Assembly (NCBI GenBank): GCA_001777665.1
Contig: MFEQ01000004.1
Location: forward strand, 64,679 to 128,678
Source: Candidatus Doudnabacteria bacterium RIFCSPHIGHO2_02_FULL_42_25
GTDB lineage: Bacteria; Patescibacteriota; Doudnabacteria; UBA920; O2-02-FULL-48-8
Direction: 5' to 3'
Length of the DNA: 64,000 nt
Part shown: piece after piece, positions 2,861 to 63,245 of the stretch
Layout: each line of letters opens with the position of its first letter
Position numbering within the stretch: the first letter of the stretch is position 1
Position numbers and translations under genes: made by a program
Notes under the pieces: model-generated
What the model saw: only the letters and a program-made list of their open reading frames with translations
What the model was told of the DNA's origin: nothing
Databases searched by the model: none

Positions 2861-4298
2861 TATGAATCGCACGCTTATTAAAGATACAATCAACAAAACC
2901 GAGCAGGAAGTTTTAATTAAAGGCTGGGTCAACATCAGAAGAGATCATGGCAAATTGATTTTTTTGGATATCCGGGACCGATCTGGTTTGATTCAAGCCG
3001 TGATCAATCCTAAGGTTTCTGCTGAAGCGCATGCGGTTGCCTCTGAAATCCGCAACGAATATGTAGTCGAGCTGATCGGAAAAATCAATCCACGCGGCGA
3101 AAAACAAATAAATCTAGACCTCGAAACTGGAAAGATCGAAATCGAAGTTACAGGGCTAAAGATAATCAACGGTGCCAAGCCACTCCCCTTTGATATTACT
3201 TCAGACACGAGAACGGTTTCCGAAGAAATACGTCTAAAATACAGGTATTTGGATTTGAGAAATGAGCGAATGAAAAAAAATCTCAAGCTAAGACATAATG
3301 TCATCCAATTCATCAGAAATTATTTGATGGGACTTGATTTCACGGAAATCCAAACACCAATCCTTACTAAATCAACACCTGAAGGAGCAAGAGATTACCT
3401 AGTACCATCGAGGATTTATCCTGGTAATTTTTTTGCATTGCCTCAATCTCCACAACAATACAAACAGTTGTTAATGGTTGGTGGAATAGAACGATACTTT
3501 CAGATAGCTCCGTGTTTTCGTGATGAAGACGCCAGAGCCGATCGAAGTCCGGGAGAATTTTATCAACTCGATCTTGAAATGTCTTTTGTCGAACAGGAAG
3601 ATATTTTAGAGTTGACTGAAAAATTGTTTACCGATTTGGTAAAAACTCTTACTCCAGAAAAACATATAACTTTTTCTCCTTGGCCAAGAATTACCCACAA
3701 AGAAGCAAAAGCGAAATTCGGAAATGACAAACCAGATATGCGTAAAGATAAAAATGATCCGAATGAATTGGCTTTTTGTTGGGTTTTAGATTTTCCTCTT
3801 TTCACTGAACAAACCGAAGAAGATTTCTTTCACGGAGCAGGAGATAAATGGGGGCCTTCGCATCACATGTTTACTGCTCCCAAATCGGAAGATATTCCAT
3901 TACTAGATACAGATCCAGGAAAAGCTAGAGGGTTACAACACGATTTGGCTTTGAATGGTGTGGAAATTGGCGGAGGTAGCATCCGTATTCATGATCCAAA
4001 AATTCAGGAAAAGATTTTTGATTTGATTGGATTTACTAAAAAGCAGAAACAACGATTCAATCACATGCTAGAAGCTTTTGAATATGGCGTTCCCCCTCAT
4101 GGTGGCATAGCTCCAGGAATAGATCGATTAGTTAGAATTTTAGCAGGGGAAGAAAAAATTAGTGAGGTCATCGCTTTTCCTCTCTCTGGATCAGTTCGCG
4201 ACCCTATGATGGGTTCCCCTTCCGACGTGTCAGACAAACAACTCAAAGAATTACACATCAAAGTGGATTTACCAAAGGAGAAAAAAATAGATATTTAA
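2861..4298 (+). CDS. aspS: aspartyl-tRNA synthetase, short archaeal/eukaryal-type (likely non-discriminating)
   Basis: OB-fold N-terminal domain, class II motifs (QSPQQYKQLLMVGGIERYFQIAPCFRDED, GGGSIRIHD), about 479 aa without GAD insertion; start moved to ATG 2861 (track ORF starts at 2751 inside the convergent neighbour). Confidence 0.85.
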
Positions 4299-4300
4299 TT

Positions 4301-4424
4301 CCCCCTCTTAGAATAAGAGGGGGTTAGGGGGGAGTTAGATCTCAAGCGTTAAACAGCAGCTTAATCCTTAAAGGATATAACCCCTCCTAGCCTCCCCTTA
4401 ATATAAGGGGAGGAACAACAGCAT
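4301..4424. mobile_element. MITE-like palindromic element (family 1: CCCCTCTTAGAATAAGAGGGG ... CTCCCCTTAATATAAGGGGAG); miniature of the DUF559 element at 33796-34251
   Basis: Both hairpin ends match the inverted ends flanking the DUF559 ORF; same 120 bp unit present in reverse orientation at 55135-55252. Confidence 0.7.
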
Positions 4425-4442
4425 ACACTCACCACCCTCAAT

Positions 4443-4511
4443 CCCATCTCGAACAGAGTGAGAGATCCCTCTTAAGAGCGATTTCTCGACTCGTTTCACT
4501 CGCTCGAAATG
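4443..4511. repeat. GC-rich hairpin repeat (family 2/3: CCCATCTCGAAC / GAGAGATCCCTC..GAGCGATTTCTC..CGAAATGG)
   Basis: Shares blocks with 56186-56240 and 62170-62193 and (reverse-complemented) 62604-62616. Confidence 0.6.
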
Positions 4512-12941: not shown

Positions 12942-13919
12942 ATGAGAAGATATCTTGCTATAACCTTGGTTTTACTGGGTGTTTTCGTGTTCGTTCCACA
13001 GGCAGAAGCCCAAGGCTTGGTCTTAAGCCAATATTCTGTAAATGTGAATATGGGGCAGTCGCAAACGATAACAGTGACCACACCAGCTGGCCAAATTCCA
13101 AATTTAATCTCTCTGACCAATGGTACAGTGGCTTATGCTACCGTTAATAGCTATCAAATTACGATTTATGGACTCAACAACGGTAGTACGCAGATGACTT
13201 TTTGTACTTATGATAATTCTTGTGCTTCAGTAAGCGTTACAGTTGGTGGAGGTAATACAAATACTTATGGCCAGATTACATTTAGCCAAAATAATCCAAT
13301 CCTGACGGTGGGTCAATCGACGACTGTGAATATTTTTTCCAACATTAGCAATCCCAGTTACTACATCCAAAATAACACCAACTCGGGAATTGTATCCGCT
13401 TCACTCAATGGCTCTACACTATTCATCACAGCACTCAATACAGGTAGCACAAACGTAGTGATCTGTTCTAATAACATTAGCAGATGTGAAAGTGTATTCG
13501 TCATGGTCAGGACTTCGGGAAGTATTGCAGGGGCTTTAGTTTATAACAACGGCACACTGATCAATGACTACGGGACTATCTACATTACTTACAAGAATTC
13601 TAAAAGCGGCTTTACCTCGGCTCAAGCATTCACAAGCCTTGGCTACAAATGGGCAAATATCATTTCAGGCTCTACTGGCAATATTCCACATTCCGGTTAC
13701 AATATTTCTTCTGCTTCTGTAGCGCATCCTTGGGGATCCTGGATTAATAATGCCGGAACGATCTATTTCGTTCATGATTCTGGATTGATCCCAATCCCGA
13801 GCATGGGTATTTTCACCAGTAACGGTGGCGTGCTCAAAAGTGTCGTCGAAGCAAACAGCTACGACTTCAACAGACCAGTCCTGGCCCAAATGGACAACAA
13901 CGACTGGCGATTGAAATAA
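12942..13919 (+). CDS. secreted protein with tandem Ig-like (Big_2-like) repeats
   Basis: Signal peptide MRRYLAITLVLLGVFVFVPQAEA, three about 85-aa repeats. Confidence 0.5.
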   Translation: MRRYLAITLVLLGVFVFVPQAEAQGLVLSQYSVNVNMGQSQTITVTTPAGQIPNLISLTNGTVAYATVNSYQITIYGLNNGSTQMTFCTYDNSCASVSVTVGGGNTNTYGQITFSQNNPILTVGQSTTVNIFSNISNPSYYIQNNTNSGIVSASLNGSTLFITALNTGSTNVVICSNNISRCESVFVMVRTSGSIAGALVYNNGTLINDYGTIYITYKNSKSGFTSAQAFTSLGYKWANIISGSTGNIPHSGYNISSASVAHPWGSWINNAGTIYFVHDSGLIPIPSMGIFTSNGGVLKSVVEANSYDFNRPVLAQMDNNDWRLK

Positions 13920-14015
13920 ACTAAAATAAAAAGAACCGCTAGTTTTACCCAGCGGCGTGAATGTATGGTCGGCGCATACTGATTGTTTGCGCCGACCATT
14001 TCGTGAGGTCCTGTG

Positions 14016-14570
14016 CTACAGCAGGATATGGCAGGCGTCGACTTTGACCGACGACTCCGTGATCTCCTTCACCAGGAACAGGCCGTACTTGCCGGATTCC
14101 GTTGTCACGGCAAGGATCGTTCCCGGCGTCAGCGTCACGATCTGGTCGTTTCTCGAGATCGCGACACGAGCAACGCGTGCCAGCGCTGACCCATCCTTGA
14201 GCTCGCGGAGCTGTTGGAAGGTTTGCTCGGAAATACCCGCCGACGAAATCCATGTCTGGTTGAGCGCCCCGGCGACGACGCGGTCGTCCAGCAACTGGAG
14301 AGAAAGCAGCGCCTTGGGCGAGCAGACGCGCACGCCGTTGCCGAACACGAACGTCAGGTCAATCTCGTTGGCGTTCTGCTCCGCATCGTTGATCGGCCGG
14401 CTCTTGTTAGCCTTGCATTTCATCAGGTAGCACAAGGGCCTTTCACCGGTGAACTCGGCGCTGTAACGGTAAAACACCCCTCGCTCCGACGGAATCACCG
14501 GCTCTGACACCGGATTGGATAGATCTTGCGTTGACTGGTCTCTTGGCTCGACTTGCACGATACACCCTCC
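14016..14570 (-). CDS. hypothetical protein encoded in a GC-rich island
   Basis: GTG start near 14568 with AAGGAGGGTG SD; local GC about 55-58% against AT-rich surroundings; no family recognised. Confidence 0.4.
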   Translation of the reverse strand, partial: GGCIVQVEPRDQSTQDLSNPVSEPVIPSERGVFYRYSAEFTGERPLCYLMKCKANKSRPINDAEQNANEIDLTFVFGNGVRVCSPKALLSLQLLDDRVVAGALNQTWISSAGISEQTFQQLRELKDGSALARVARVAISRNDQIVTLTPGTILAVTTESGKYGLFLVKEITESSVKVDACHILL

Positions 14571-14691
14571 TTTGGGCTTCGCTGATTTACTGCGGTTAAA
14601 CTGAAAACTAGGGACACACTGAAGTGCCCCTAGTTTACCAAGTATCGGTAGGGCTTGCAACTAGCATATTTTAAACAATTTCGAATCCTAT

Positions 14692-14818: not shown

Positions 14819-14838
14819 CCTGCCTGCCGGCAGGCAGG
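14819..14838. repeat. perfect 20-bp palindrome CCTGCCTGCCGGCAGGCAGG (copy 1)
   Basis: Identical palindrome at 29607-29626 and 32015-32034; variant at 35660-35679. Confidence 0.9.
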
Positions 14839-16608: not shown

Positions 16609-17193
16609 ATGTTTTTCGGAAACAGCGGTCAGATTATCAGCATGTCTCATCACCTAACGCTTCCAGCGCAGTTCCGCCCTCAAAGACGTGAAGTGTTCTT
16701 CTGGTGGAGAATGCGCGTTCTCCTCCTATGGGGGATCATTGCTTTGAGTCTCGCAGGAATCTGGTGGTTCGGCCTAACAGGGCTGGAACCTGCCTTCGTA
16801 TTCACTGCAGCTTTTATGTATTCGTTGATCGATTGGCGGATATCAAAAGTTGTGGTTCTTCAACAGGCTGATCATCGTCTGGAACGATATAACCGGATGC
16901 TGAAATTGCTGGGTAACTGGAGTCCCGCTGGCTATGTCGACGCGAGGCAGACTGTAGACTATCCGACTGATCCCTGCAAATCAGCTGAATCCCTACTTTA
17001 CGAACTTGCTGCTGTGCGTCGGAATCTGGAAAAGGAGTGGGTCCAAACACCGTACGAAGAAAGAACGGAAGCTCACGACCACAATCTCTGGAGGTCACGA
17101 GAACGACTCAAAGAAGCGTACGACCTATTCCTCGAGTTCGGGCTCATTAAACCGACCGGTTACCAGAAATACTTCGATAAACCAGCGGCTTAG
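16609..17193 (+). CDS. hypothetical membrane protein in a GC-rich island
   Basis: TAAGGAGGG SD, GC about 50%, two TM helices; no family recognised. Confidence 0.4.
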   Translation: MFFGNSGQIISMSHHLTLPAQFRPQRREVFFWWRMRVLLLWGIIALSLAGIWWFGLTGLEPAFVFTAAFMYSLIDWRISKVVVLQQADHRLERYNRMLKLLGNWSPAGYVDARQTVDYPTDPCKSAESLLYELAAVRRNLEKEWVQTPYEERTEAHDHNLWRSRERLKEAYDLFLEFGLIKPTGYQKYFDKPAA

Positions 17194-22995: not shown

Positions 22996-23070
22996 TACGA
23001 AATACGAATTGGTACGAAACTACGAACTGGGCTTAATTCTTTCGTATTTTCGTAGATTTTCGTAGTTCGG
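22996..23070. promoter_or_regulatory. TACGAA/TTCGTA iteron palindrome (copy 1) in mraZ 5' region
   Basis: 4 direct TACGAA repeats then 3-4 inverted TTCGTA repeats; same architecture at 31445-31524, 35119-35190, 61170-61264, 63134-63245. Confidence 0.7.
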
Positions 23071-26553: not shown

Positions 26554-26835
26554 TTACGCCGTTTTTAGTTCAGGGTAAGCCCGAAGTCGGTCGCAGAGAG
26601 CCTGGAACTTATCCCGATCTACCGGAAGTTCCGGGTTCGGAGTGCCAACCGGCTCAACGTCGTTAACGACCCGACGGTACCAGGACAGGAAATCTCGAAT
26701 GATTGAGGTTTCCTTTGTATGACGGCTTGCGACGGGATAGGCCGTCATAAGCGCTTCACGGAGCGCGTAGCAATGCTTCAATGTCGGCTCCTCGATGTTG
26801 ACGACAAGCATTTCCTGCAATTCCTGTATGCTCAC
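26554..26835 (-). CDS. hypothetical small protein in a GC-rich island
   Basis: GTG start with GGGAGGAGGA SD; GC-rich; no family. Confidence 0.4.
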   Translation of the reverse strand: MSIQELQEMLVVNIEEPTLKHCYALREALMTAYPVASRHTKETSIIRDFLSWYRRVVNDVEPVGTPNPELPVDRDKFQALCDRLRAYPELKTA

Positions 26836-29606: not shown

Positions 29607-29626
29607 CCTGCCTGCCGGCAGGCAGG
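29607..29626. repeat. perfect 20-bp palindrome CCTGCCTGCCGGCAGGCAGG (copy 2), intercistronic
   Basis: Abuts stop codon of upstream gene, 13 nt before next ATG. Confidence 0.9.
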
Positions 29627-31435: not shown

Positions 31436-31444
31436 AGTTATTAT

Positions 31445-31524
31445 CTACGAACTTACGAAATTTTTACGAAAGTACGAAGAGCTAATTTTTTTCGTATTTT
31501 CGTACTTGTTCGTACTTTCGTAGC
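31445..31524. promoter_or_regulatory. TACGAA/TTCGTA iteron palindrome (copy 2), immediate rplJ leader
   Basis: Ends 10 nt upstream of rplJ ATG. Confidence 0.7.
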
Positions 31525-31729
31525 CGTTAATTATATAAAATAAAAACTGTCAGATTCAAAGACAGTGATTGCTTGCCGATTTATCGGCTCTCATCTGCTT
31601 AGCGAATTAAGGCATATAGCCAGCTAAGGTCTTTGAATTAAGTTCTCACATAGTATAAATGATTTTCGGCATCAGGTCAAGAGCGCAACCTCGATAAAAA
31701 ATCGGGTCCCATATAGGAACCCGGCGGGT

Positions 31730-31936
31730 CTAGTACCAAGCAGCTCTTCGCTGAAGTGAACCGTAATTGATACGATCCAGCTCCGCGTCAGAGAGTCGCA
31801 GCGCTGGGCCGTGCTGAGCGTCTTTGAGATCGACTTTCTTGTTTTTGATCTCTTTTCGTCGCGCCCGTTCAAGAAGACGCTTGTGTCTTGCTCGCCCCCG
31901 GACTCGTTTCCTCCGTATTCGCCATTGTATACTCAT
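31730..31936 (-). CDS. small basic protein (68 aa) in a GC-rich patch
   Basis: R/K-rich, GC about 52%, own terminator 31690-31728; no family. Confidence 0.4.
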   Translation of the reverse strand: MSIQWRIRRKRVRGRARHKRLLERARRKEIKNKKVDLKDAQHGPALRLSDAELDRINYGSLQRRAAWY

Positions 31937-32014
31937 CTTCGCACCCCTGTGGATAACAGCTTAACATAAAAACCCCAGCTTTCGCCAGAGTCCCTTTTTA
32001 CTTATTACTTTTTA

Positions 32015-32034
32015 CCTGCCTGCCGGCAGGCAGG
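32015..32034. repeat. perfect 20-bp palindrome CCTGCCTGCCGGCAGGCAGG (copy 3)
   Basis: 7 nt after mltG stop; flanked by TTACTTATTAC motifs. Confidence 0.9.
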
Positions 32035-32041
32035 CTTATTA

Positions 32042-33795: not shown

Positions 33796-34251
33796 CCCTC
33801 CTAGAATAGGAGGGGCTAGGGGTGGTAGAACCTAAGGCAACTCACGAGAAATTTTTTCAATTACACCTTCAATACTTTCCCGAACCTCATCATTCGTAAA
33901 ACGAAGAAGTCGAATTTGATTAGATTCTAAAAAAACTTCTCTTCTCTTGTCATATTCGTTTCCTTTTGGATCTAGAAAATGTGAATCACCATCTACTTCA
34001 ATTCCTAACCTTAATTCATTACAATAAAAATCCAAAATATAATTACCAATTCCATATTGTCGTCTAAATTTATAACCTTTAAGGTTCTTACCTCTTAGAT
34101 AATACCAAAGAATCTGCTCTGCTTGAGGCATATTGTTCCTTAGTTGCTGTCTTCTGCTTTTATATTCTTTTTTGTTGTATAAATAATCCATACTTTATTC
34201 TACCTCACATTCTACCCCACCTAACCTCCCCTATTCTAGGGGAGGAACAAC
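33796..34251. mobile_element. small palindrome-ended element carrying a DUF559 nuclease gene (ends CCCCTCCTAGAATAGGAGGGG / CCTCCCCTATTCTAGGGGAGG)
   Basis: Inverted hairpin ends flank the ORF; MITE-like ORF-less derivatives at 4301-4424 and 55135-55252. Confidence 0.65.
33832..34191 (-). CDS. DUF559 (Vsr-like PD-(D/E)XK) endonuclease-domain protein
   Basis: LW..LR...GYKFRRQYGIGNYILDFYCNELRLGIEVDGDSH hallmark of DUF559. Confidence 0.8.
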   Translation of the reverse strand: MDYLYNKKEYKSRRQQLRNNMPQAEQILWYYLRGKNLKGYKFRRQYGIGNYILDFYCNELRLGIEVDGDSHFLDPKGNEYDKRREVFLESNQIRLLRFTNDEVRESIEGVIEKISRELP

Positions 34252-35061: not shown

Positions 35062-35118
35062 TTTACCAATTCACCCCCTCTCATCCCCTCCCACCCCCAT
35101 TCTCGACCTTTAAGATAT

Positions 35119-35190
35119 CTACGAACTACGAATTTTTACGAATATACGAACTGGGGTTAACCCTTTTCGTAAATTCGTGTTTGTTCGTAA
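35119..35190. promoter_or_regulatory. TACGAA/TTCGTA iteron palindrome (copy 3) with GGGTTAACCC core
   Basis: 58 nt upstream of 35061 start. Confidence 0.7.
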
Positions 35191-35346
35191 GTTGCCAGCA
35201 CAAAAAAAGCAAAGCCCGAAATTCAGGTTTTACTCGTTTTTTCGCACTACGGATTGTTGTTGGGTTTCCATCAAAAAATCGTATCTATCCACATTATACA
35301 ATATAAAGCCCCCGCTTGTCAACGGGGGCAATATATTTTTGGTTTT

Positions 35347-35631
35347 TTAGAGGATTGCGTCTTTAGCAGCCTTGGCTACTCTGAACTTTACTACAGTCTT
35401 AGCAGGGATTTTGATTTGTTCCCCGGTAGCTGGGTTGCGGCCCATGCGGGCATCGCGGTGCTTCTTTAGAAGCTTACCCAACCCTGGCAGGGTGAATTCA
35501 CCACTATTCTTAGCTTCTGCATACGCTAGATTAGCGACAGCATCTAAGAATTCTGCCACTTCTTTGCGGGTTTTGCCGGTTTTCTCGGCTAGGGCGTTGA
35601 GCACCTCTGACTTGGTCATTCCTTTGGCCAT
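35347..35631 (-). CDS. hup: DNA-binding protein HU
   Basis: GFGKF-like arm ...RMGRNPATGEQIKIPAK. Confidence 0.85.
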   Translation of the reverse strand: MAKGMTKSEVLNALAEKTGKTRKEVAEFLDAVANLAYAEAKNSGEFTLPGLGKLLKKHRDARMGRNPATGEQIKIPAKTVVKFRVAKAAKDAIL

Positions 35632-35659
35632 GAACGTACCTTTCTTAATAAATTATTAA

Positions 35660-35679
35660 CCTGCCTACCGTCAGGCAGG
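35660..35679. repeat. 20-bp palindrome variant CCTGCCTACCGTCAGGCAGG (copy 4)
   Basis: In hup 5' region, next to a GC-rich island. Confidence 0.8.
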
Positions 35680-35769
35680 CAATCTGAAAACCAGTATAGC
35701 AAATCCTTAACAAATACGCTAGTTGCGGTCAAGGAATAAAAAAAGACCGCGGGTTTTAGTGACCGACGG

Positions 35770-35994
35770 TCAGGTCTGGACAATGTCGCTGGCAGCAGCC
35801 TTGGCCTGTTGTTCGGCGTGCTTCCGAGCGTTCCTGCGTACGCCATTCTGCGCCCAATTGTGCAAAATGCGTTCGGCGAAGGAAAGTTTTCTGTATGGAT
35901 TGTGGCGAAGTTCAAAAAACCACAGCCCAGCGCACGCGAGACTTCCGCCGACGACGATTATCTTCAGCCACTGTTGCCATGTCAAGTCAGCCAT
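35770..35994 (-). CDS. small membrane protein, GC-rich island
   Basis: AGGAGGTAATCCCG-ATG SD; one TM. Confidence 0.4.
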   Translation of the reverse strand: MADLTWQQWLKIIVVGGSLACAGLWFFELRHNPYRKLSFAERILHNWAQNGVRRNARKHAEQQAKAAASDIVQT

Positions 35995-36006
35995 CGGGAT
36001 TACCTC

Positions 36007-36147
36007 CTAGACTGGAAGTTTGAGGTTTTCCAGAATGTTCTCGCCGTCTGGAACCTTGGCGAGTCGTTCATAGCAGTACACGAGGGCAAAAACGCCAAAG
36101 CAGACAGTGCCCACAGCCACAACGACACCTACAACAACAAGTGTGTG
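36007..36147 (-). CDS. small hydrophobic protein, GC-rich island
   Basis: Likely start MHTLVVVGVV at 36147 with GAAGGGGG SD; single TM. Confidence 0.3.
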   Translation of the reverse strand, partial: HTLVVVGVVVAVGTVCFGVFALVYCYERLAKVPDGENILENLKLPV

Positions 36148-36154
36148 CATGCCC

Positions 36155-36454
36155 CTAGCCCCCTTCGTAGTAGACGCAAGGTAAATCGGTAAATGACGCG
36201 CGCCCTGTCCTGAAGTACTGGAATTCACGGTAGGACTCGAGTCGGCATTCGGGAAGCAATCGCGCCGGAGAACGATGAATCGCGCTTATGACCTCGTCTT
36301 CGAGATCCATGAGAAAAACTACAAGCCCCATGCATTCAGCGCCAATCGTATCGATGATCGTGACCTGATCCGCACCTATTTGCGTCAGTTCGTTGAGAAG
36401 TCCCGCTTTCGCCAGCGGGATCGAAATCGCCAGCTTGAAGTGCGTGACTTCCAT
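36155..36454 (-). CDS. small protein with P-II-like/ferredoxin-like fold pattern, GC-rich island
   Basis: AGAGGG SD; beta-alpha-beta pattern MEVTHFKLAISIPLAKAGLLNEL; family uncertain. Confidence 0.35.
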   Translation of the reverse strand: MEVTHFKLAISIPLAKAGLLNELTQIGADQVTIIDTIGAECMGLVVFLMDLEDEVISAIHRSPARLLPECRLESYREFQYFRTGRASFTDLPCVYYEGG

Positions 36455-36569
36455 GTGTATACCCTCTTGAAAGTTGAATTCGATAGTAAATAGTGTAGCT
36501 CAATTCTAAGGTTTCAACAAGGACTCTTGATTATTTTGCTATTTTTTGCTATAGTAATTTGGCTTTTTG

Positions 36570-36645
36570 GCCGTTGTAGCTCAGCTGGTAGAGCAACTCC
36601 ATGGTAAGGAGTAGGTCCGCGGTTCAATTCCGCGCAACGGCTCCA
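36570..36645 (+). tRNA. tRNA-Thr (anticodon GGU)
   Basis: Cloverleaf folded by hand: acceptor GCCGTTG/CAACGGC, anticodon loop ATGGTAA, TTCAATT T-loop, discriminator U, CCA encoded. Confidence 0.8.
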
Positions 36646-36791
36646 CGAGTCAACTAACCCTTAGGCCTCCGCGTATCCGACATCGTCGAATCCGCTCCGG
36701 CCTTCGGGATTACTGCCTCTCTCAAAACAAAATGTTATAACTAAATCTTAAAGTACATTTTGTTTTGTATTAACTCAAAAGAAAGGGATTC

Positions 36792-36947
36792 ATGTCACAA
36801 GATAATTTAATCAATTTGGAATGCACAGTTTGCCATCGGATCAACTACCATTCCAGAAAAAATAAAAAGCTGAATACTAACCGATTGGTTATTATTAAAT
36901 TTTGTAAGTGGGACAAGAAACGCACGGAACACAAAGAAACTAAGTAG
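36792..36947 (+). CDS. rpmG: 50S ribosomal protein L33
   Basis: 51 aa, CTVC...YHSRKNKK...LVIIKFCKWDKKRTEHKE pattern of L33; AAAGGGA SD; missed by 60-aa ORF cut-off. Confidence 0.75.
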   Translation: MSQDNLINLECTVCHRINYHSRKNKKLNTNRLVIIKFCKWDKKRTEHKETK

Positions 36948-36970
36948 CTTTTCCCGCCAGAAGCGGGCAT

Positions 36971-37044
36971 GGGGGCTTAGTACAATGGTAGTATCTTCCT
37001 CTCCAAAAGGAAAGATGTGGGTTCGATTCCTACAGCCCCTGCCA
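36971..37044 (+). tRNA. tRNA-Trp (anticodon CCA)
   Basis: Acceptor GGGGGCT/AGCCCCT, anticodon loop CTCCAAA, GTTCGATTC T-arm, CCA encoded. Confidence 0.8.
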
Positions 37045-37078
37045 AAAAAGGCCTGACATATGTCAGGCCTTTTTTGAT
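37045..37078 (+). terminator. terminator AGGCCTGACA-TA-TGTCAGGCCT + T6
   Basis: Perfect 10-bp stem followed by TTTTTT. Confidence 0.8.
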
Positions 37079-37083
37079 TTAAT

Positions 37084-37815
37084 TTATTTAGTTCTCACTA
37101 TTGGCAGGGTGAAGAAAAAGGTCGTTCCCTTCCCTAGCTGCGATTCAAACCAAATTTTGCCGCCAGAGCCTTCGATAAAAGCTTTGGCTATGTATAGACC
37201 CAAACCAGTACCCACTGACTCAACTTTCGAAACATTACTACCCCGGAAAAACTTTTCAAAGACATCTCCCGCCTGATCTTTTGGTATCCCTATTCCTGAA
37301 TCTGTAACTGAACAGACCAACATTGTTCGGTCTTCATCTTTAAATCTTAAATCAATCTTAACCTTTCCGTTGTCAGGAGTGTAGCTTACCGCATTCGCTA
37401 TAATATTATGGATTGCCTGTTTAATCTTTATCGGTTCAGTGCGAACGACTGGAAATGGTTCTTGTTCGACGGTGAAGCTGACATTTAAATTCTTTTGCTT
37501 GATCTCTTGCGCTTTGTCCATTAGCAACTGACGGATAATCACGACCATGTCGGTTGGTTGGAGATAAAGTTTGGTATCCCCTGACTCAATTCTGGAGACC
37601 TCCAATAGATCATTGACCAGGGCAATCATTCGTTCATTCAATGCATAAATTTTGAAAATAAAATCTTTTTGCTTTTTATTTAAAGTTCCAGTGTTGGGTT
37701 TTTGGAGTAGCTCCAACATCCACTTCATCCCTGACAATGGAGTACGCAATTGGTGCGATGTTAAATTTGCAAAATCAGCATTAATGCTGTTAAAATCTCT
37801 ATTTTTAGGTGGCAT
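37084..37815 (-). CDS. cytoplasmic sensor histidine kinase (HisKA + HATPase_c)
   Basis: H-box SHQLRTPLSGM, N/G1/G2 boxes. Confidence 0.75.
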   Translation of the reverse strand: MPPKNRDFNSINADFANLTSHQLRTPLSGMKWMLELLQKPNTGTLNKKQKDFIFKIYALNERMIALVNDLLEVSRIESGDTKLYLQPTDMVVIIRQLLMDKAQEIKQKNLNVSFTVEQEPFPVVRTEPIKIKQAIHNIIANAVSYTPDNGKVKIDLRFKDEDRTMLVCSVTDSGIGIPKDQAGDVFEKFFRGSNVSKVESVGTGLGLYIAKAFIEGSGGKIWFESQLGKGTTFFFTLPIVRTK

Positions 37816-54480: not shown

Positions 54481-54936
54481 TCAGCGCGGCTTGGTCGCGA
54501 TCAACTTCGCAGGATCATGCATGCGAGTGAACGTTCCAACGAACAGTTCAGAAAGCGGTTTCCCTCTATCTACTCGTTGCATTTCTTCTTCTAGTCTTTC
54601 GTAGCCCTCCTTCATGATTGCCTCGTGAGCTGCACTGTCCTCACCATTGTGACTCTGGGCTTTCTCGATCTCTCGTTTGATCTCAAAAACAAGCTCTTGT
54701 CTCCGCACATCCATTGTCTGAATAACACGACCACCGCCCAGCTTAACTTTCGCTAACGCTAGGTAGACGGCACGAATATGCTGACCCATTGGATCAGTAG
54801 ATCTCGGGTCAAAGCGCGGTACCTGGATCAGGCCCGATAACCCGTCACTCATTTCCTGCGACGCCAAGTACCAGCCGTTGCCCTCCGCTTGTTCATACGT
54901 TAACTTGATGATCTTACGGTCACTGCTGTTAACCAA
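54481..54936 (-). CDS. hypothetical protein in a GC-rich island
   Basis: TTG start with GAGGTGA SD; GC about 52%; no family. Confidence 0.4.
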   Translation of the reverse strand: MVNSSDRKIIKLTYEQAEGNGWYLASQEMSDGLSGLIQVPRFDPRSTDPMGQHIRAVYLALAKVKLGGGRVIQTMDVRRQELVFEIKREIEKAQSHNGEDSAAHEAIMKEGYERLEEEMQRVDRGKPLSELFVGTFTRMHDPAKLIATKPR

Positions 54937-55134: not shown

Positions 55135-55252
55135 CAGCAGTTGTTCCTCCCCTTAATATAAGGGGAGCTAGGAGGGGTTATCCTTAAGCGTTAAGCTGCT
55201 GTTTAACTCTTGGAATCAACTCCCCCTAACCCCCTCTTATTCTAAGAGGGGG
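55135..55252. mobile_element. MITE-like palindromic element (family 1), reverse-orientation copy of 4301-4424
   Basis: Near-identical block order in reverse complement. Confidence 0.7.
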
Positions 55253-55268
55253 AATTTACAGCAAACTT

Positions 55269-56201
55269 ATGTCTAACAAACTAATAGTAATTTTAGGCCC
55301 TACCACCTCGGGGAAATCATCACTCGCTATCAATCTCGCCCAAAAATTCAATGGCGAGATTATTTCTGCTGACTCCAGGCAAGTCTACAAAGGCATGGAT
55401 ATCGGCACTGGTAAAGTTACTAAAGCAGAACAAAAACTAATCAAACATTATCTTCTCGACGTCTCCTCCCCAAAAAAGCAATTCACTGTTTCGGATTTTA
55501 AGCGTCTTCTAATTTCAGCGATCGCTCAAATTAGAGGAAAAGACAAATTGCCTTTCTTAGTTGGTGGCTCGCCTTTTTATATTTATGCGGCCATAGATAA
55601 TCTACAAATTCCAGAAGTCACACCCAATCAAAAACTACGTAATCAACTACGTAGAAAAACTACTACCCAACTTTTTGCCATGCTTAAAAAACTTGACCCA
55701 GTTCGAGCAAAAAATATTGATAAAAATAATCCTCGGAGATTGATAAGAGCTATTGAAATAGTAAAAGCGACGGGAAAGCCGGTACCACCCCCACCTAACC
55801 TCCCCCTGGCAGGGGGAGGTGCCTTGATCATTGGGATCAAGAAGTCTCGTAAACAGCTCTACAAGCTTATCGATCAACGACTTGAGCAAAGACTCAATCA
55901 AGGAATGGTTAATGAAGTCAAAAAACTTCTGAAACAAAAAATCAGCCACAAACGGCTGCAAGAAATGGGATTAGAGTATCGCTTTATTTCTCTTTATCTG
56001 CAAGATCATCTCACCTATGAGCAAATGGTTGAACAATTGAAAAGCGCTATTCACAAATTCAGCAAACGCCAAATGACTTGGTTCCAAACCGACAAACGTA
56101 TCAAATGGATCTCTTCAGAAAAACAAGCAGAACGACTAATTAAGGACTATATAAAACCATCTCGACCCCGGACTACGATCCGGGGGAGAGATCCCTCCTG
56201 A
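55269..56201 (+). CDS. miaA: tRNA dimethylallyltransferase
   Basis: P-loop GPTTSGKSSLAINLA, DSRQVYKGMDIGT; carries two in-frame palindromic insertions (55789-55819 and 56166-56201). Confidence 0.85.
   Translation: MSNKLIVILGPTTSGKSSLAINLAQKFNGEIISADSRQVYKGMDIGTGKVTKAEQKLIKHYLLDVSSPKKQFTVSDFKRLLISAIAQIRGKDKLPFLVGGSPFYIYAAIDNLQIPEVTPNQKLRNQLRRKTTTQLFAMLKKLDPVRAKNIDKNNPRRLIRAIEIVKATGKPVPPPPNLPLAGGGALIIGIKKSRKQLYKLIDQRLEQRLNQGMVNEVKKLLKQKISHKRLQEMGLEYRFISLYLQDHLTYEQMVEQLKSAIHKFSKRQMTWFQTDKRIKWISSEKQAERLIKDYIKPSRPRTTIRGRDPS
55789..55819. repeat. family-1 hairpin CCCCACCTAACCTCCCCC-TGGCA-GGGGGAGG inserted in-frame in miaA
   Basis: Shares 17-mer CCCCACCTAACCTCCCC with element end 34215-34231; translated as PPPNLPLAGGGA. 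Confidence 0.7.
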
Positions 56202-56366
56202 GAGCGATTTCTCACTAATCGTTCGAAATGGGTAATCCCATCCCGGACGCTACAAGCGAAGCGCGGGCGATCCGGGATCCACTACACTAATTAATATCAA
56301 ATGATTCTTATTTGAAATGGACCCCGGATCGGCTTGATCGCCGGAGAGACGATCAAGTCCGGGGTG
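56166..56366. repeat. composite GC-rich hairpin repeat (family 2/3) overlapping the miaA 3' end
   Basis: CCCCGGA-CTACGA-TCCGGGG encodes the last miaA codons; GAGAGATCCCTC block; ATCCCGGA..TCCGGGAT; ACCCCGGATC..GATCAAGTCCGGGGT. Confidence 0.7.
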
Positions 56367-62512: not shown

Positions 62513-62603
62513 TAATCGCCTGAACTTCAATTTACAGAGCCTGACTCGTTCGGCTCTTTCTTTTTTTAAAACATTAGCGAAAAATCACTTCTTAAGGCTC
62601 TGA

Positions 62604-62678
62604 AGAGGGATCTCTCCCCCGGATCGGAGTCCGGGGTCGAGATGGTTACCTATTTGGTCCGATCGTACAAATAGGTAA
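62604..62678. repeat. family-2/3 repeat (GAGGGATCTCTCCCCCGGATCGGAGTCCGGGG) plus hairpin TTACCTATTTG/CAAATAGGTAA
   Basis: Right flank of ppnP-like gene, abuts recX stop. Confidence 0.6.
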
Positions 62679-62679
62679 T

Positions 62680-63105
62680 TCAGCAAAAATCCTGAAGAAT
62701 TGTTCTGATCACATCATTTCGAAAACCCTTACTCGACAGTCGTTGGGCAATTTTTGGTTTCGGTAAATTTCCTGATTTGTTTAAAACCTTTTTGGCGAGT
62801 TCTAACTCGAGTTCAAAAGTTAAATTTGCTTTCAGTGCTGCTTCCGCTTCATTGCTTGCAATCCCCCGCTGCATTAACTTACTCTTAAGGCCATAGAAGC
62901 CATAAGTTTTATTTCTAAGTAATTCGTCCAAATAGAGTTGGACAAACCGATCATTGTCGATAAGGTTTTCTTCCTGTAATTTCTGAATTACACCCTCAAC
63001 TTCCTCACGACTAAAACCTCTCATCAACAGCTTTTTGGTTAATTCGCCTGAATGATGAGGCCTGATTTTCAACAGTTTTATGGCTTTATCGTAAACGCTT
63101 GACAT
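62680..63105 (-). CDS. recX: RecA regulator RecX
   Basis: Three-helix-repeat RecX pattern. Confidence 0.65.
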   Translation of the reverse strand: MSSVYDKAIKLLKIRPHHSGELTKKLLMRGFSREEVEGVIQKLQEENLIDNDRFVQLYLDELLRNKTYGFYGLKSKLMQRGIASNEAEAALKANLTFELELELAKKVLNKSGNLPKPKIAQRLSSKGFRNDVIRTILQDFC

Positions 63106-63133: not shown

Positions 63134-63245
63134 CTACGAAAGTACGAAAGGATTACCTGCCCGACATGCCAGTCATGGCAGGCGGGCGAAAATACGAAAG
63201 GTTTTCACACATGTTCGTATTTCGAACAAATTCGTAGTTCGTAGA
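63134..63245. promoter_or_regulatory. TACGAA/TTCGTA iteron palindrome (copy 5) in the recX/clpC divergent region
   Basis: Inverted copy of 61170-61264 including the GC-rich core. Confidence 0.7.

What the first reader, a model, noticed from the sequence alone, without database searches (positions are those of the whole stretch)
35690..36500. GC-rich island with three small genes (two membrane peptides and a P-II-like fold protein) wedged between hup and tRNA-Thr
An 800-bp patch at about 52% GC encodes three ORFs: 35770-35994, 36007-36147 and 36155-36454. Each has an AGGAGG or GAGGG ribosome-binding site. The patch is bordered on the hup side by the palindrome variant CCTGCCTACCGTCAGGCAGG (35660-35679) and on the other side by tRNA-Thr. 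tRNA genes are classic integration targets. The 99-aa product begins MEVTHFKLAISIPLAKAGLLNEL, a beta-alpha-beta pattern reminiscent of P-II/DUF190-like small regulators.
Basis: partly seen in the sequence, partly recalled or inferred. Interest (0 to 1): 0.55.

Follow-up and report, generated by a model that had tools for sequence, protein, structure and literature searches.

The report
GC-rich orphan-gene islet upstream of hup
A small three-gene cassette with foreign base composition (one soluble protein and two tiny membrane peptides, function unknown) sits in a rearrangement-prone gap of a Candidatus Doudnabacteria genome; it is real and lineage-specific, but it is an ordinary kind of acquired orphan DNA and there is no sign that it entered through the neighbouring tRNA gene.

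Summary
Window 35733-36460 is 52.6% GC against 41% for the window (z = 3.7). It carries three tightly packed minus-strand genes: ORF3 99 aa, ORF2 47 aa (start is 36150, not 36147) and ORF1 74 aa. Each has a Shine-Dalgarno site. The organism is a Candidatus Doudnabacteria (CPR) bacterium. The same junctions recur in at least 24 contigs, so this is not an assembly artefact.

The genes are orphans. ORF1 and ORF2 match only themselves among 5.8 billion proteins. ORF3 has one relative (76% identity), also beside hup. Four syntenic Doudnabacteria species lack all three genes. Several close relatives carry different, non-homologous GC-rich orphan segments at the same spot, directly upstream of the conserved hup upstream block.

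The tRNA-integration idea is not supported. The islet faces the 5' (promoter) side of tRNA-Thr, and there is no integrase or tRNA-end repeat. The adjacency results from an inversion of the tRNA-Thr/rpmG/tRNA-Trp block. The palindrome is a 20-bp insertion in the hup 5' UTR, not an island border.

ORF3 models, at low confidence, as a generic ferredoxin-like fold. It lacks a T-loop, so it is not a P-II member.

Most likely this is an acquired, self-contained mini-operon encoding a small membrane-associated complex, possibly toxin/antitoxin-like. Interest is modest.

The parts
36455..36526 (-). 5' region of the islet operon, lying between the tRNA-Thr promoter and the ORF3 start. Its own promoter was not identified.
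   Evidence: AT-rich spacer ending in the GAGGG ribosome-binding site. The consensus scan found no minus-strand sigma-70 match here. There is no similarity to relatives upstream of window position 36570.
36155..36454 (-). ORF3: a 99-aa acidic soluble protein. The N-terminal 60 residues model as strand-helix-strand-strand-helix (ferredoxin-like). The C-terminal motif TGRASFTDLPCVYY is conserved.
36007..36150 (-). ORF2: a 47-aa single-pass membrane peptide (hydrophobic residues 3-26) with an acidic C-terminal tail. Its start lies 4 nt after the ORF3 stop.
   Evidence: maximum 19-residue Kyte-Doolittle hydropathy 2.71, and an AAGGGGG ribosome-binding site inside the end of ORF3. It matches only itself among 5.8 billion proteins.
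35770..35994 (-). ORF1: a 74-aa protein with an N-terminal membrane helix (residues 9-27) and a basic C-terminal tail. Its AGGAGG ribosome-binding site overlaps the ORF2 stop codon.
   Evidence: It matches only itself among 5.8 billion proteins. The contig carrying the ORF3 homologue has no room for it: the gap between the 56-aa gene and hup is 131 nt.
35733..35769 (-). 3' end of the islet: a weak hairpin followed by a run of seven T. It directly abuts the conserved hup upstream block.
   Evidence: Fold of -14.5 kcal/mol, z = -2.2; not called by the terminator scan. The alignment with relatives starts at the next base.
35680..35732 (-). Conserved hup upstream block (TTGAC ... TGCTATACT extended -10 ... 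ATTG). This is native DNA and marks the hup-side limit of the islet.
   Evidence: Alignment A2 with six related loci. It is the only stretch shared by blastn among the hup-upstream regions compared.
35660..35679 (.). 20-bp palindrome CCTGCCTACCGTCAGGCAGG, a precise insertion in the hup 5' UTR between ATTG and TTAATAAT. It is not part of the islet.
   Evidence: hairpin of -14.5 kcal/mol. It is absent from all loci of other species.
35347..35631 (-). hup (HU), the conserved flanking gene.
   Evidence: Pfam Bac_DNA_binding, E = 7.5e-27. Identity to relatives is 82-94%.
36527..37080 (+). tRNA-Thr promoter, tRNA-Thr(GGT), rpmG (L33), tRNA-Trp and a bidirectional terminator. This block is inverted in this genome relative to four related species.
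   Evidence: The blastn orientation of this block is opposite to that of the flanking histidine kinase and hup. The tRNAs lie on the same strand as hup in L014, L016 and L017.

Best explanation
The patch is a lineage-specific mini-operon, most likely acquired horizontally. It is a promoterless-looking but otherwise self-contained three-gene unit.

Location. It sits in the variable spacer between the tRNA-Thr/rpmG/tRNA-Trp block and the conserved hup upstream block of a Candidatus Doudnabacteria genome. This spacer has different content in every related species examined. It was also remodelled in this lineage: the tRNA block was inverted, and the ABC-transporter and LUD-domain genes found there in relatives are absent.

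Products. The three genes are read from one transcript and are translationally coupled. They encode a small acidic cytoplasmic protein with a ferredoxin-like alpha+beta core (ORF3), followed by two single-pass membrane peptides (ORF2, ORF1).

Inferred mechanism. ORF3 docks on, and controls or neutralises, the membrane peptide(s). This would be a small membrane-associated module of the toxin/antitoxin, exclusion or 'moron' type, not a metabolic or P-II signalling function. ORF3 plus one peptide appears to be the conserved core, because the only relative has ORF3 followed by a 56-aa gene and then hup.

What is shown and what is inferred. Shown: composition, gene structure, orphan status, absence from relatives, position, the inversion, and the lack of tRNA-integration signatures. 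Inferred: horizontal origin, co-transcription, complex formation, and the functional class.
For: Composition:
- 52.6% GC against 41.2% for the window, z = 3.7.
- GC3 is 0.54-0.63 against 0.40 +/- 0.07.
- The synonymous-codon score is -0.08, against +0.07 +/- 0.03 for long host genes. L10, L7/L12, L33 and EF-Ts are host-typical.

Coding:
- ORF cover is reached by 1 of 1000 shuffles. Ribosome-binding sites have 8-nt spacing. The intergenic gaps are 4 and 12 nt.
- The ORF3 homologue has the same length and 76% identity. Predicted strands 1 and 3 and the C-terminal motif are invariant.
- There is no Rfam match and no excess RNA folding stability (z = +0.4 and +0.8).

Real DNA:
- The same sequence and junctions occur in 24 contigs from several samples and assemblers.

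Orphan status:
-.
- The profile search of 1.84 billion representatives returned only two repeat-protein artefacts.
- There is no match in phage, plasmid or viral collections.

Absent from relatives with conserved flanks:
-.

Variable hotspot:
- Relatives carry ABC transporter, LUD, ArsR, zf-UBP, CSD and MazE-like genes in this spacer.
- L011, L013, L014 and L016 have GC-rich (52-56%, z = 1.6-2.3) orphan segments directly upstream of hup. These share no similarity with the islet or with each other, and have no Pfam domains.

Other:
- Boundary and inversion.
- Membrane peptides and charge.
- ORF3 fold.
Against: - No donor or distant homologue exists in any database searched, so horizontal origin rests on composition and patchy distribution alone.
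- No mobility gene, target duplication or terminal repeat was found.
- A 76%-identical ORF3 sits beside hup in another organism. The islet is therefore not very recent, yet it has not drifted towards the host GC content.
- hup itself is codon-atypical (score -0.086, GC3 0.52). Relatives are also GC-rich at this spot. A local compositional effect is therefore not excluded.
- All available copies are clonal (at least 99.87% identity), so no test for selection was possible.
- No promoter was detected for the operon.
- The functional class has no direct support. There are no hits in Pfam, PHROGs, NCBIfam, PADLOC or PDB sequences. There is no similarity to GhoS or GhoT. The structural model is low-confidence.
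Confidence: 0.5

Rival explanations
1. The islet is the remnant of an integrative element that entered at tRNA-Thr.
For: It has foreign composition, lies next to a tRNA gene, and is absent from relatives. In the ancestral orientation the whole variable spacer lies just 3' of tRNA-Trp.
Against: - The islet faces the 5' (promoter) side of tRNA-Thr.
- There is no direct repeat of a tRNA end.
- There is no integrase, excisionase or other mobility gene in this interval or in the relatives' spacers.
- The adjacency to tRNA-Thr was created by an inversion.
- The islet abuts the hup upstream block, not a tRNA 3' end.
Confidence: 0.05
2. The genes are native and fast-evolving. On this view the hup-upstream segment is one ancestral locus in this Doudnabacteria clade that diverges beyond recognition, and its GC-richness comes from a local mutational, expression or selective bias and not from foreign origin.
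For: - GC-rich segments occupy the same position in L011, L013, L014 and L016.
- An ORF3 homologue lies beside hup in another organism.
- hup itself has raised GC3 and atypical codon usage here and in relatives.
Against: - The segments differ in gene number, size and strand, and show no blastn or tblastx similarity.
- L017 and L012 have ordinary genes and ordinary GC at this spot.
- Similar GC-rich orphan patches occur at unrelated places in the window: 13.9-14.6 kb, 31.7-31.9 kb, 26.5 kb and 54.5 kb. One of them is a clear insertion relative to L016 and L017.
- Ribosomal-protein genes are not GC-rich.
Confidence: 0.15
3. The segment is inert captured DNA. A piece of foreign GC-rich DNA was fixed neutrally in a tolerant intergenic spot, and its ORFs are no longer (or never were) functional in this host.
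For: - No promoter was detected.
- The genes have no homologues.
- GC-rich DNA yields long ORFs by chance. For example, a 127-aa antisense ORF lies at 35809-36192.
Against: - The architecture is compact and coupled, with correctly spaced ribosome-binding sites, and is reached by only 1 of 1000 shuffles.
- ORF3 has kept an intact frame and a structured conservation pattern at 24% divergence.
- A small gene still follows ORF3 in the relative.
Confidence: 0.15
4. The region is a structured non-coding RNA or an assembly chimera, not a gene cassette.
For: GC-rich islands in AT-rich genomes are often RNA genes, and this patch lies next to tRNAs.
Against: - There is no Rfam match at E <= 1 inside the islet.
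- Folding energy is no better than that of shuffles on either strand.
- Protein-level conservation of ORF3 argues for coding.
- The junctions are identical in 24 contigs from independent samples.
Confidence: 0.02

Closest known systems
Genomic islets in integration or variable hotspots between conserved core genes, including phage-style 'morons' (own knowledge of the concepts)
   Same: It is a short, compositionally deviant, self-contained unit lying between conserved neighbours, just upstream of a housekeeping gene's promoter block. It is present in one lineage and replaced by unrelated DNA in others.
   Different: No recombinase, att site or phage context is present. The host is an ultra-small CPR genome. 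The cargo is entirely orphan genes. The same spot carries GC-rich orphans in several species.
P-II / P-II-like / CutA / ACT small ferredoxin-like proteins
   Same: ORF3 is about 100 aa with a strand-helix-strand-strand-helix core. P-II-like PstA, TTHA0516, CPII, DUF3240 and CutA are among the best structural matches.
   Different: There are no sequence-family hits. There is no T-loop: strands 2 and 3 are joined by a tight 2-residue turn. The fourth strand is not modelled. A unique conserved C-terminal tail (TGRASFTDLPCVYY) is present. The matches are as good to V-ATPase subunit C, EF-G domains and NikR, which makes this a generic fold. The model has pLDDT 55.
GhoS/GhoT type V toxin-antitoxin pair of E. 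coli (architecture only)
   Same: A soluble protein of about 98-99 aa is encoded first, immediately followed by a membrane peptide of about 50 aa, in a compact two-gene core. That GhoS has a ferredoxin-like fold is from my own knowledge.
   Different: No sequence similarity exists: hhalign probability 0.07% for ORF3 against GhoS, and BLASTP E = 11 for ORF2 against GhoT. There are no Pfam GhoS or GhoT hits. A third gene (ORF1) is present. ORF2 has one membrane helix, not two. No toxicity data exist.
tRNA-linked integrative islands
   Same: Foreign composition and a tRNA neighbour.
   Different: It lies at the wrong end of the tRNA. There is no repeat and no integrase. The adjacency is due to an inversion.

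Membership tests
P-II (GlnB/GlnK, Pfam PF00543) | Sequence match to the family profile | tested here: not met
   There is no P-II hit at E <= 1 in Pfam or NCBIfam. The profile search of PDB sequences found nothing relevant.
P-II (GlnB/GlnK, Pfam PF00543) | Double beta-alpha-beta ferredoxin-like core | tested here: inconclusive
   The AlphaFold2 model shows strands 5-13, 30-37 and 40-48 and helices 18-26 and 49-60. No fourth strand is modelled and pLDDT is 55. P-II-like chains match only at Foldseek E 0.007-0.04 and TM about 0.5.
P-II (GlnB/GlnK, Pfam PF00543) | Long T-loop between strands 2 and 3, and a nucleotide-binding B-loop motif | tested here: not met
   Strands 2 and 3 are joined by residues 38-39 only. 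No glycine-rich B-loop-type motif is visible in the sequence.
P-II (GlnB/GlnK, Pfam PF00543) | Homotrimer | not testable with these tools
   No multimer prediction is available.
DUF190 / CutA-type small P-II-like proteins | Sequence match to PF02641 or PF03091 | tested here: not met
tRNA-targeted integrative genomic island | Integrase or recombinase gene in the element | tested here: not met
   The interval holds only the three small ORFs, and none has a Pfam or PHROG recombinase hit.
tRNA-targeted integrative genomic island | Insertion at the tRNA 3' end, with a direct repeat of that end at the far border | tested here: not met
   The islet faces the 5' side of tRNA-Thr. No tRNA-derived repeat lies within 35300-37100.
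tRNA-targeted integrative genomic island | Foreign composition and absence from relatives | tested here: met
GhoS/GhoT type V toxin-antitoxin | Homology to GhoS and GhoT | tested here: not met
GhoS/GhoT type V toxin-antitoxin | Gene order: soluble antitoxin first, then a small membrane toxin, in one compact operon | tested here: met
   ORF3 is followed by ORF2 after a 4-nt gap. In the relative, the 99-aa gene is followed by a 56-aa gene.
GhoS/GhoT type V toxin-antitoxin | Membrane toxicity of the peptide, and its neutralisation by the partner (an RNase acting on the toxin mRNA) | not testable with these tools
   This needs expression experiments.
Known anti-phage defence systems (PADLOC) | Match to any defence-protein model | tested here: not met
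   There are no families at E <= 1 for any of the three proteins.

The most novel reading that the evidence does not exclude
The spot immediately upstream of the hup upstream block in this Doudnabacteria clade might be a dedicated capture site. On this reading, GC-rich, promoter-poor orphan mini-operons would be inserted there repeatedly by an unrecognised recombinase-independent mechanism, for example uptake of foreign DNA by the CPR competence machinery followed by homology-facilitated recombination through the highly conserved hup and tRNA/rpmG flanks. ORF3 with its partner peptide(s) would then be a new family of membrane-acting toxin/antitoxin or symbiosis-related effector.
Probability: 0.1. 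Interest if true: 0.6.

Novelty: new member of a known kind. Interest (0 to 1): 0.3.

Why it matters
If the reading is right, the patch is one of several small, compositionally foreign orphan cassettes scattered through a very small CPR genome, sitting in a spot that turns over between species. This is a modest but concrete example of how streamlined episymbiotic bacteria still gain and exchange accessory genes. It also gives a defined pair, ORF3 plus a membrane peptide, that could be tested for toxin/antitoxin-like behaviour. It does not open a long-standing question, and the function remains unknown.

Tried and rejected
- Family searches of the three proteins in Pfam, PHROGs, NCBIfam, PADLOC and PDB sequences found nothing significant.
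- The word-indexed search of 5.8 billion proteins returned, for each protein, only the protein itself, plus one ORF3 relative.
- The exhaustive HMMER profile search of 1.84 billion representatives gave two extra hits. Both are internally repetitive proteins whose E-values come from summing seven weak repeats, so I rejected them as artefacts.
- The DNA of the relative's contig could not be fetched because the sample file is too large. Two metagenome-contig scans (peptide patterns, then a back-translated C-terminal motif) found nothing. No dN/dS could therefore be computed.
- Viral contigs, phage records and plasmid records gave no match.
- The ten fetched copies of the locus are clonal and carry no informative variation.
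- Rfam and RNA-folding tests for a structured RNA were negative.
- Repeat searches found no tRNA-end duplication, target-site duplication or terminal inverted repeats. The only notable inverted repeat (35688-35703 with 36545-36560) is simply the two -10 regions of the hup and tRNA-Thr promoters.
- A 19-nt motif shared by the 3' ends of this islet and the 13.9-kb islet (AAAARRACCGCNNGTTTTA) occurs only at those two sites. It was derived from them, so I did not pursue it.
- Comparison with GhoS and GhoT showed no similarity.
- The AFDB Foldseek library was unavailable. The viral fold library gave only weak generic matches.
- A literature search returned nothing bearing on GC-rich orphan islets in Doudnabacteria.

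Full report
**What is there.**
- The window averages 41.2% GC. The stretch 35700-36460 is 52.6% GC, and the 750-nt window 35717-36466 is the second most GC-rich in the 64 kb (53.3%, z = 3.7).
- Three minus-strand ORFs fill the stretch: ORF3 36155-36454 (99 aa), ORF2 36007-36150 (47 aa) and ORF1 35770-35994 (74 aa).
- ORF3 is preceded by AAGAGGG 8 nt before its ATG. ORF2 starts 4 nt after the ORF3 stop, with AAGGGGG 8 nt upstream. ORF1 starts 12 nt after the ORF2 stop, and its AGGAGG overlaps that stop codon.
- This degree of same-strand ORF packing (669 of 738 nt) was reached by 1 of 1000 dinucleotide shuffles.
- tRNA-Thr(GGT) lies at 36570-36645 on the opposite strand, with its 5' end towards the islet. 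hup (Pfam Bac_DNA_binding, E = 7.5e-27) lies at 35347-35631.

**Real DNA, real genes.**
- The organism is a Candidatus Doudnabacteria bacterium from the Rifle aquifer series.
- The same sequence and the same junctions occur in 24 contigs from JGI, ENA and NCBI assemblies. The ten fetched are 99.87-100% identical to the window. An assembly chimera is excluded, but the copies give no variation to test selection.
- There is no Rfam family inside the islet, and neither strand folds better than its shuffles (z = +0.4 and +0.8).
- ORF3 has one relative, P0002. It is 99 aa long and 76% identical. Predicted strands 1 and 3 and the C-terminal stretch TGRASFTDLPCVYY are invariant, and the substitutions fall mainly outside those invariant segments, in the helices, strand 2 and the linkers. 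This is what a folded protein under constraint looks like.

**Orphan status and composition.**
- ORF1 and ORF2 match only themselves among 5.8 billion clustered proteins.
- A profile of the two ORF3 sequences, run against 1.84 billion representatives, added only two internally repetitive proteins. Their E-values come from seven summed weak repeats, so they are artefacts.
- No match exists in Pfam, PHROGs, NCBIfam, PADLOC or PDB sequences.
- No match exists in phage, plasmid or viral-contig collections.
- GC3 is 0.54-0.63, against 0.40 +/- 0.07 for window ORFs of at least 100 aa.
- A synonymous-codon score is -0.08 for the islet, against +0.07 +/- 0.03 for long host genes. L10, L7/L12, L33 and EF-Ts are host-typical, so high expression alone does not explain the composition. 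hup, however, is itself somewhat atypical.

**Comparison with relatives.**
- A scan of one genome per species with the HU protein returned 80 loci. None encodes any of the three proteins.
- Four other Doudnabacteria species (L011, L014, L016, L017) share the neighbourhood: two histidine kinases, tRNA-Thr, rpmG, tRNA-Trp, a variable spacer, hup, an MscS-like gene, CAP, YceG, L10 and L7/L12.
- In these species the spacer is about 3 kb. It holds an ABC transporter, LUD-domain, ArsR, zf-UBP, cold-shock and MazE-like genes in various combinations. None of these genes is in the window.
- A block of about 54 nt upstream of hup (TTGAC ... TGCTATACT ... ATTG) is conserved in all of them. The islet ends exactly where this block begins, at 35733.
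It is found only in this genome.
- The tRNA-Thr/rpmG/tRNA-Trp block (about 36527-37080) is inverted here relative to all four species, while the kinase and hup keep their orientation. The tRNA-Thr promoter (TTGATT-17-TATAGT) moved with it.
- The contact between the islet and tRNA-Thr is therefore a by-product of an inversion, and it involves the tRNA's 5' side.
- No repeat of a tRNA end and no recombinase are present. The tRNA-integration reading is not supported.

**A variable, GC-rich spot.**
- In L011, L013, L014 and L016 the 800 nt just upstream of the hup block are also GC-rich: 52-56% against 44-49% for the loci, z = 1.6-2.3.
- These segments carry different ORFs on either strand, several with good ribosome-binding sites and some with membrane helices.
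- They have no Pfam domains and no blastn or tblastx similarity to each other or to the islet.
- L012 and L017, and more distant CPR lineages, do not show the bias.
- The P0002 contig reads: gene fragment, 99-aa gene, 56-aa gene, hup. Only 131 nt separate the 56-aa gene from hup. ORF3 plus one small gene therefore sits at the same place in at least one other organism, and ORF1 is an extra in the window genome.
- Within the window, similar GC-rich orphan patches occur at 13.9-14.6 kb, 31.7-31.9 kb, 26.5 kb, 54.5 kb and 16.6 kb. The 31.7-kb patch is a clean insertion between YceG and the L10 promoter relative to L016 and L017.

**The proteins.**
- ORF2 is one long hydrophobic helix (residues 3-26, hydropathy 2.71) with an acidic tail. 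ORF1 has an N-terminal membrane helix (residues 9-27) and a basic tail. ORF3 is acidic and soluble.
- The AlphaFold2 model of ORF3, built from a two-sequence alignment, is poor (pLDDT 55). It is consistent in residues 5-60: strand, helix, strand, strand, helix. The conserved tail is unmodelled.
Strands 2 and 3 are joined by a two-residue turn where P-II has its T-loop, and no family profile matches. ORF3 is not a P-II or DUF190 member.

**Most likely explanation.**
- The islet is an acquired, lineage-specific mini-operon in a spacer that turns over between species.
- Tight translational coupling argues that the three products are made together, and that the soluble protein acts on the membrane peptide(s).
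- The closest architectural analogue I know is the GhoS/GhoT pair: a soluble protein of about 98 aa followed by a membrane toxin of about 57 aa. There is no sequence similarity, so this is an analogy, not membership.
- I put about 0.5 on the overall reading, that is, an acquired functional membrane-associated module. Within that, I put only about a quarter on a toxin/antitoxin-like mechanism specifically.
- The rivals are:
  - a native fast-evolving locus with a local GC bias (0.15);
  - inert captured DNA (0.15);
  - a tRNA-targeted element (0.05);
  - a structured RNA or an assembly artefact (0.02).

**Verdict.** This is a new, two-member orphan family in an ordinary kind of genomic islet. 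The mildly interesting point is that the same spot upstream of hup carries unrelated GC-rich orphans in several Doudnabacteria species.

Noticed in passing
window 13940-14660: This is the most GC-rich patch of the window (13822-14571 is 56.5% GC, z = 4.65). It holds a minus-strand orphan ORF of about 182 aa (GC3 0.72-0.78) with no Pfam, NCBIfam or PADLOC hit. It has its own TTGCAA-17-TAAACT promoter-like site and two strong terminator hairpins.
   Followed up: partly
window 31640-32040: This GC-rich patch encodes a very basic 68-aa orphan ORF (31730-31936, minus strand). Relative to L016 and L017 it is an insertion of about 350 bp between the YceG stop codon and the L10 promoter.
   Followed up: partly
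window 26554-26835, 54481-54936, 16609-17193: Three further small ORFs have raised GC3 (0.52-0.60), atypical codon usage and no Pfam domain. GC-rich orphan genes appear to be scattered through this genome.
   Followed up: no
window 14819-14838, 29607-29626, 32015-32034, 35660-35679: This is a 20-bp perfect palindrome family, CCTGCCTGCCGGCAGGCAGG, with a variant at hup (0 copies expected by chance). Three of the four copies (14819, 29607, 35660) sit just upstream of the ribosome-binding site of a minus-strand gene; the fourth (32015) lies about 60 nt upstream of the 31.7-kb patch ORF. The hup copy is a precise 20-bp insertion that is absent from other species. It may be a tiny mobile or regulatory hairpin.
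   Followed up: partly
window 36527-37080: The tRNA-Thr/rpmG/tRNA-Trp block is inverted relative to L011, L014, L016 and L017, while the flanking histidine kinase and hup keep their orientation.
   Followed up: yes
L011 2593-2881: In the closest related species, tRNA-Thr(GGT) is interrupted by a 213-nt insertion directly after the anticodon. ARAGORN misses this tRNA. No Rfam group I intron or other family matches the insert.
   Followed up: partly
window 31440-31525, 35118-35200, 23031-23067, 63221-63245: This is an imperfectly palindromic repeat family rich in TACGAA/TTCGTA. The copy at 31.4 kb is an insertion of about 85 nt in the L10 5' UTR relative to L016 and L017.
   Followed up: partly
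window 33832-34191: This DUF559 (Vsr-like endonuclease) gene is unusually AT-rich (31% GC, GC3 0.20). It is absent from this position in L014, L016 and L017, so it is another lineage-specific insertion, this time of opposite compositional bias.
   Followed up: partly
window 4297-4480, 55137-55256, 56155-56213, 62597-62693: Several other intergenic repeat families are present, for example CCCCCTAACCCCCTCTTATTCTAAGAGGGGG and GAGAGATCCCTC-type elements. Copies are 80-100% identical, in direct and inverted orientation.
   Followed up: no
window 35957-35985 (minus strand): A near-consensus promoter-like site (TTGACA-17-GATAAT, 11 of 12 matches) lies inside the 5' end of ORF1 and points towards hup.
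   Followed up: no
L011 4900-5900, L013 5400-5850, L014 5000-5900, L016 5200-5900: In four related species, non-homologous GC-rich (52-61%) orphan segments lie directly upstream of the conserved hup upstream block. Some carry ribosome-binding-site-preceded membrane-protein ORFs on either strand.
   Followed up: partly
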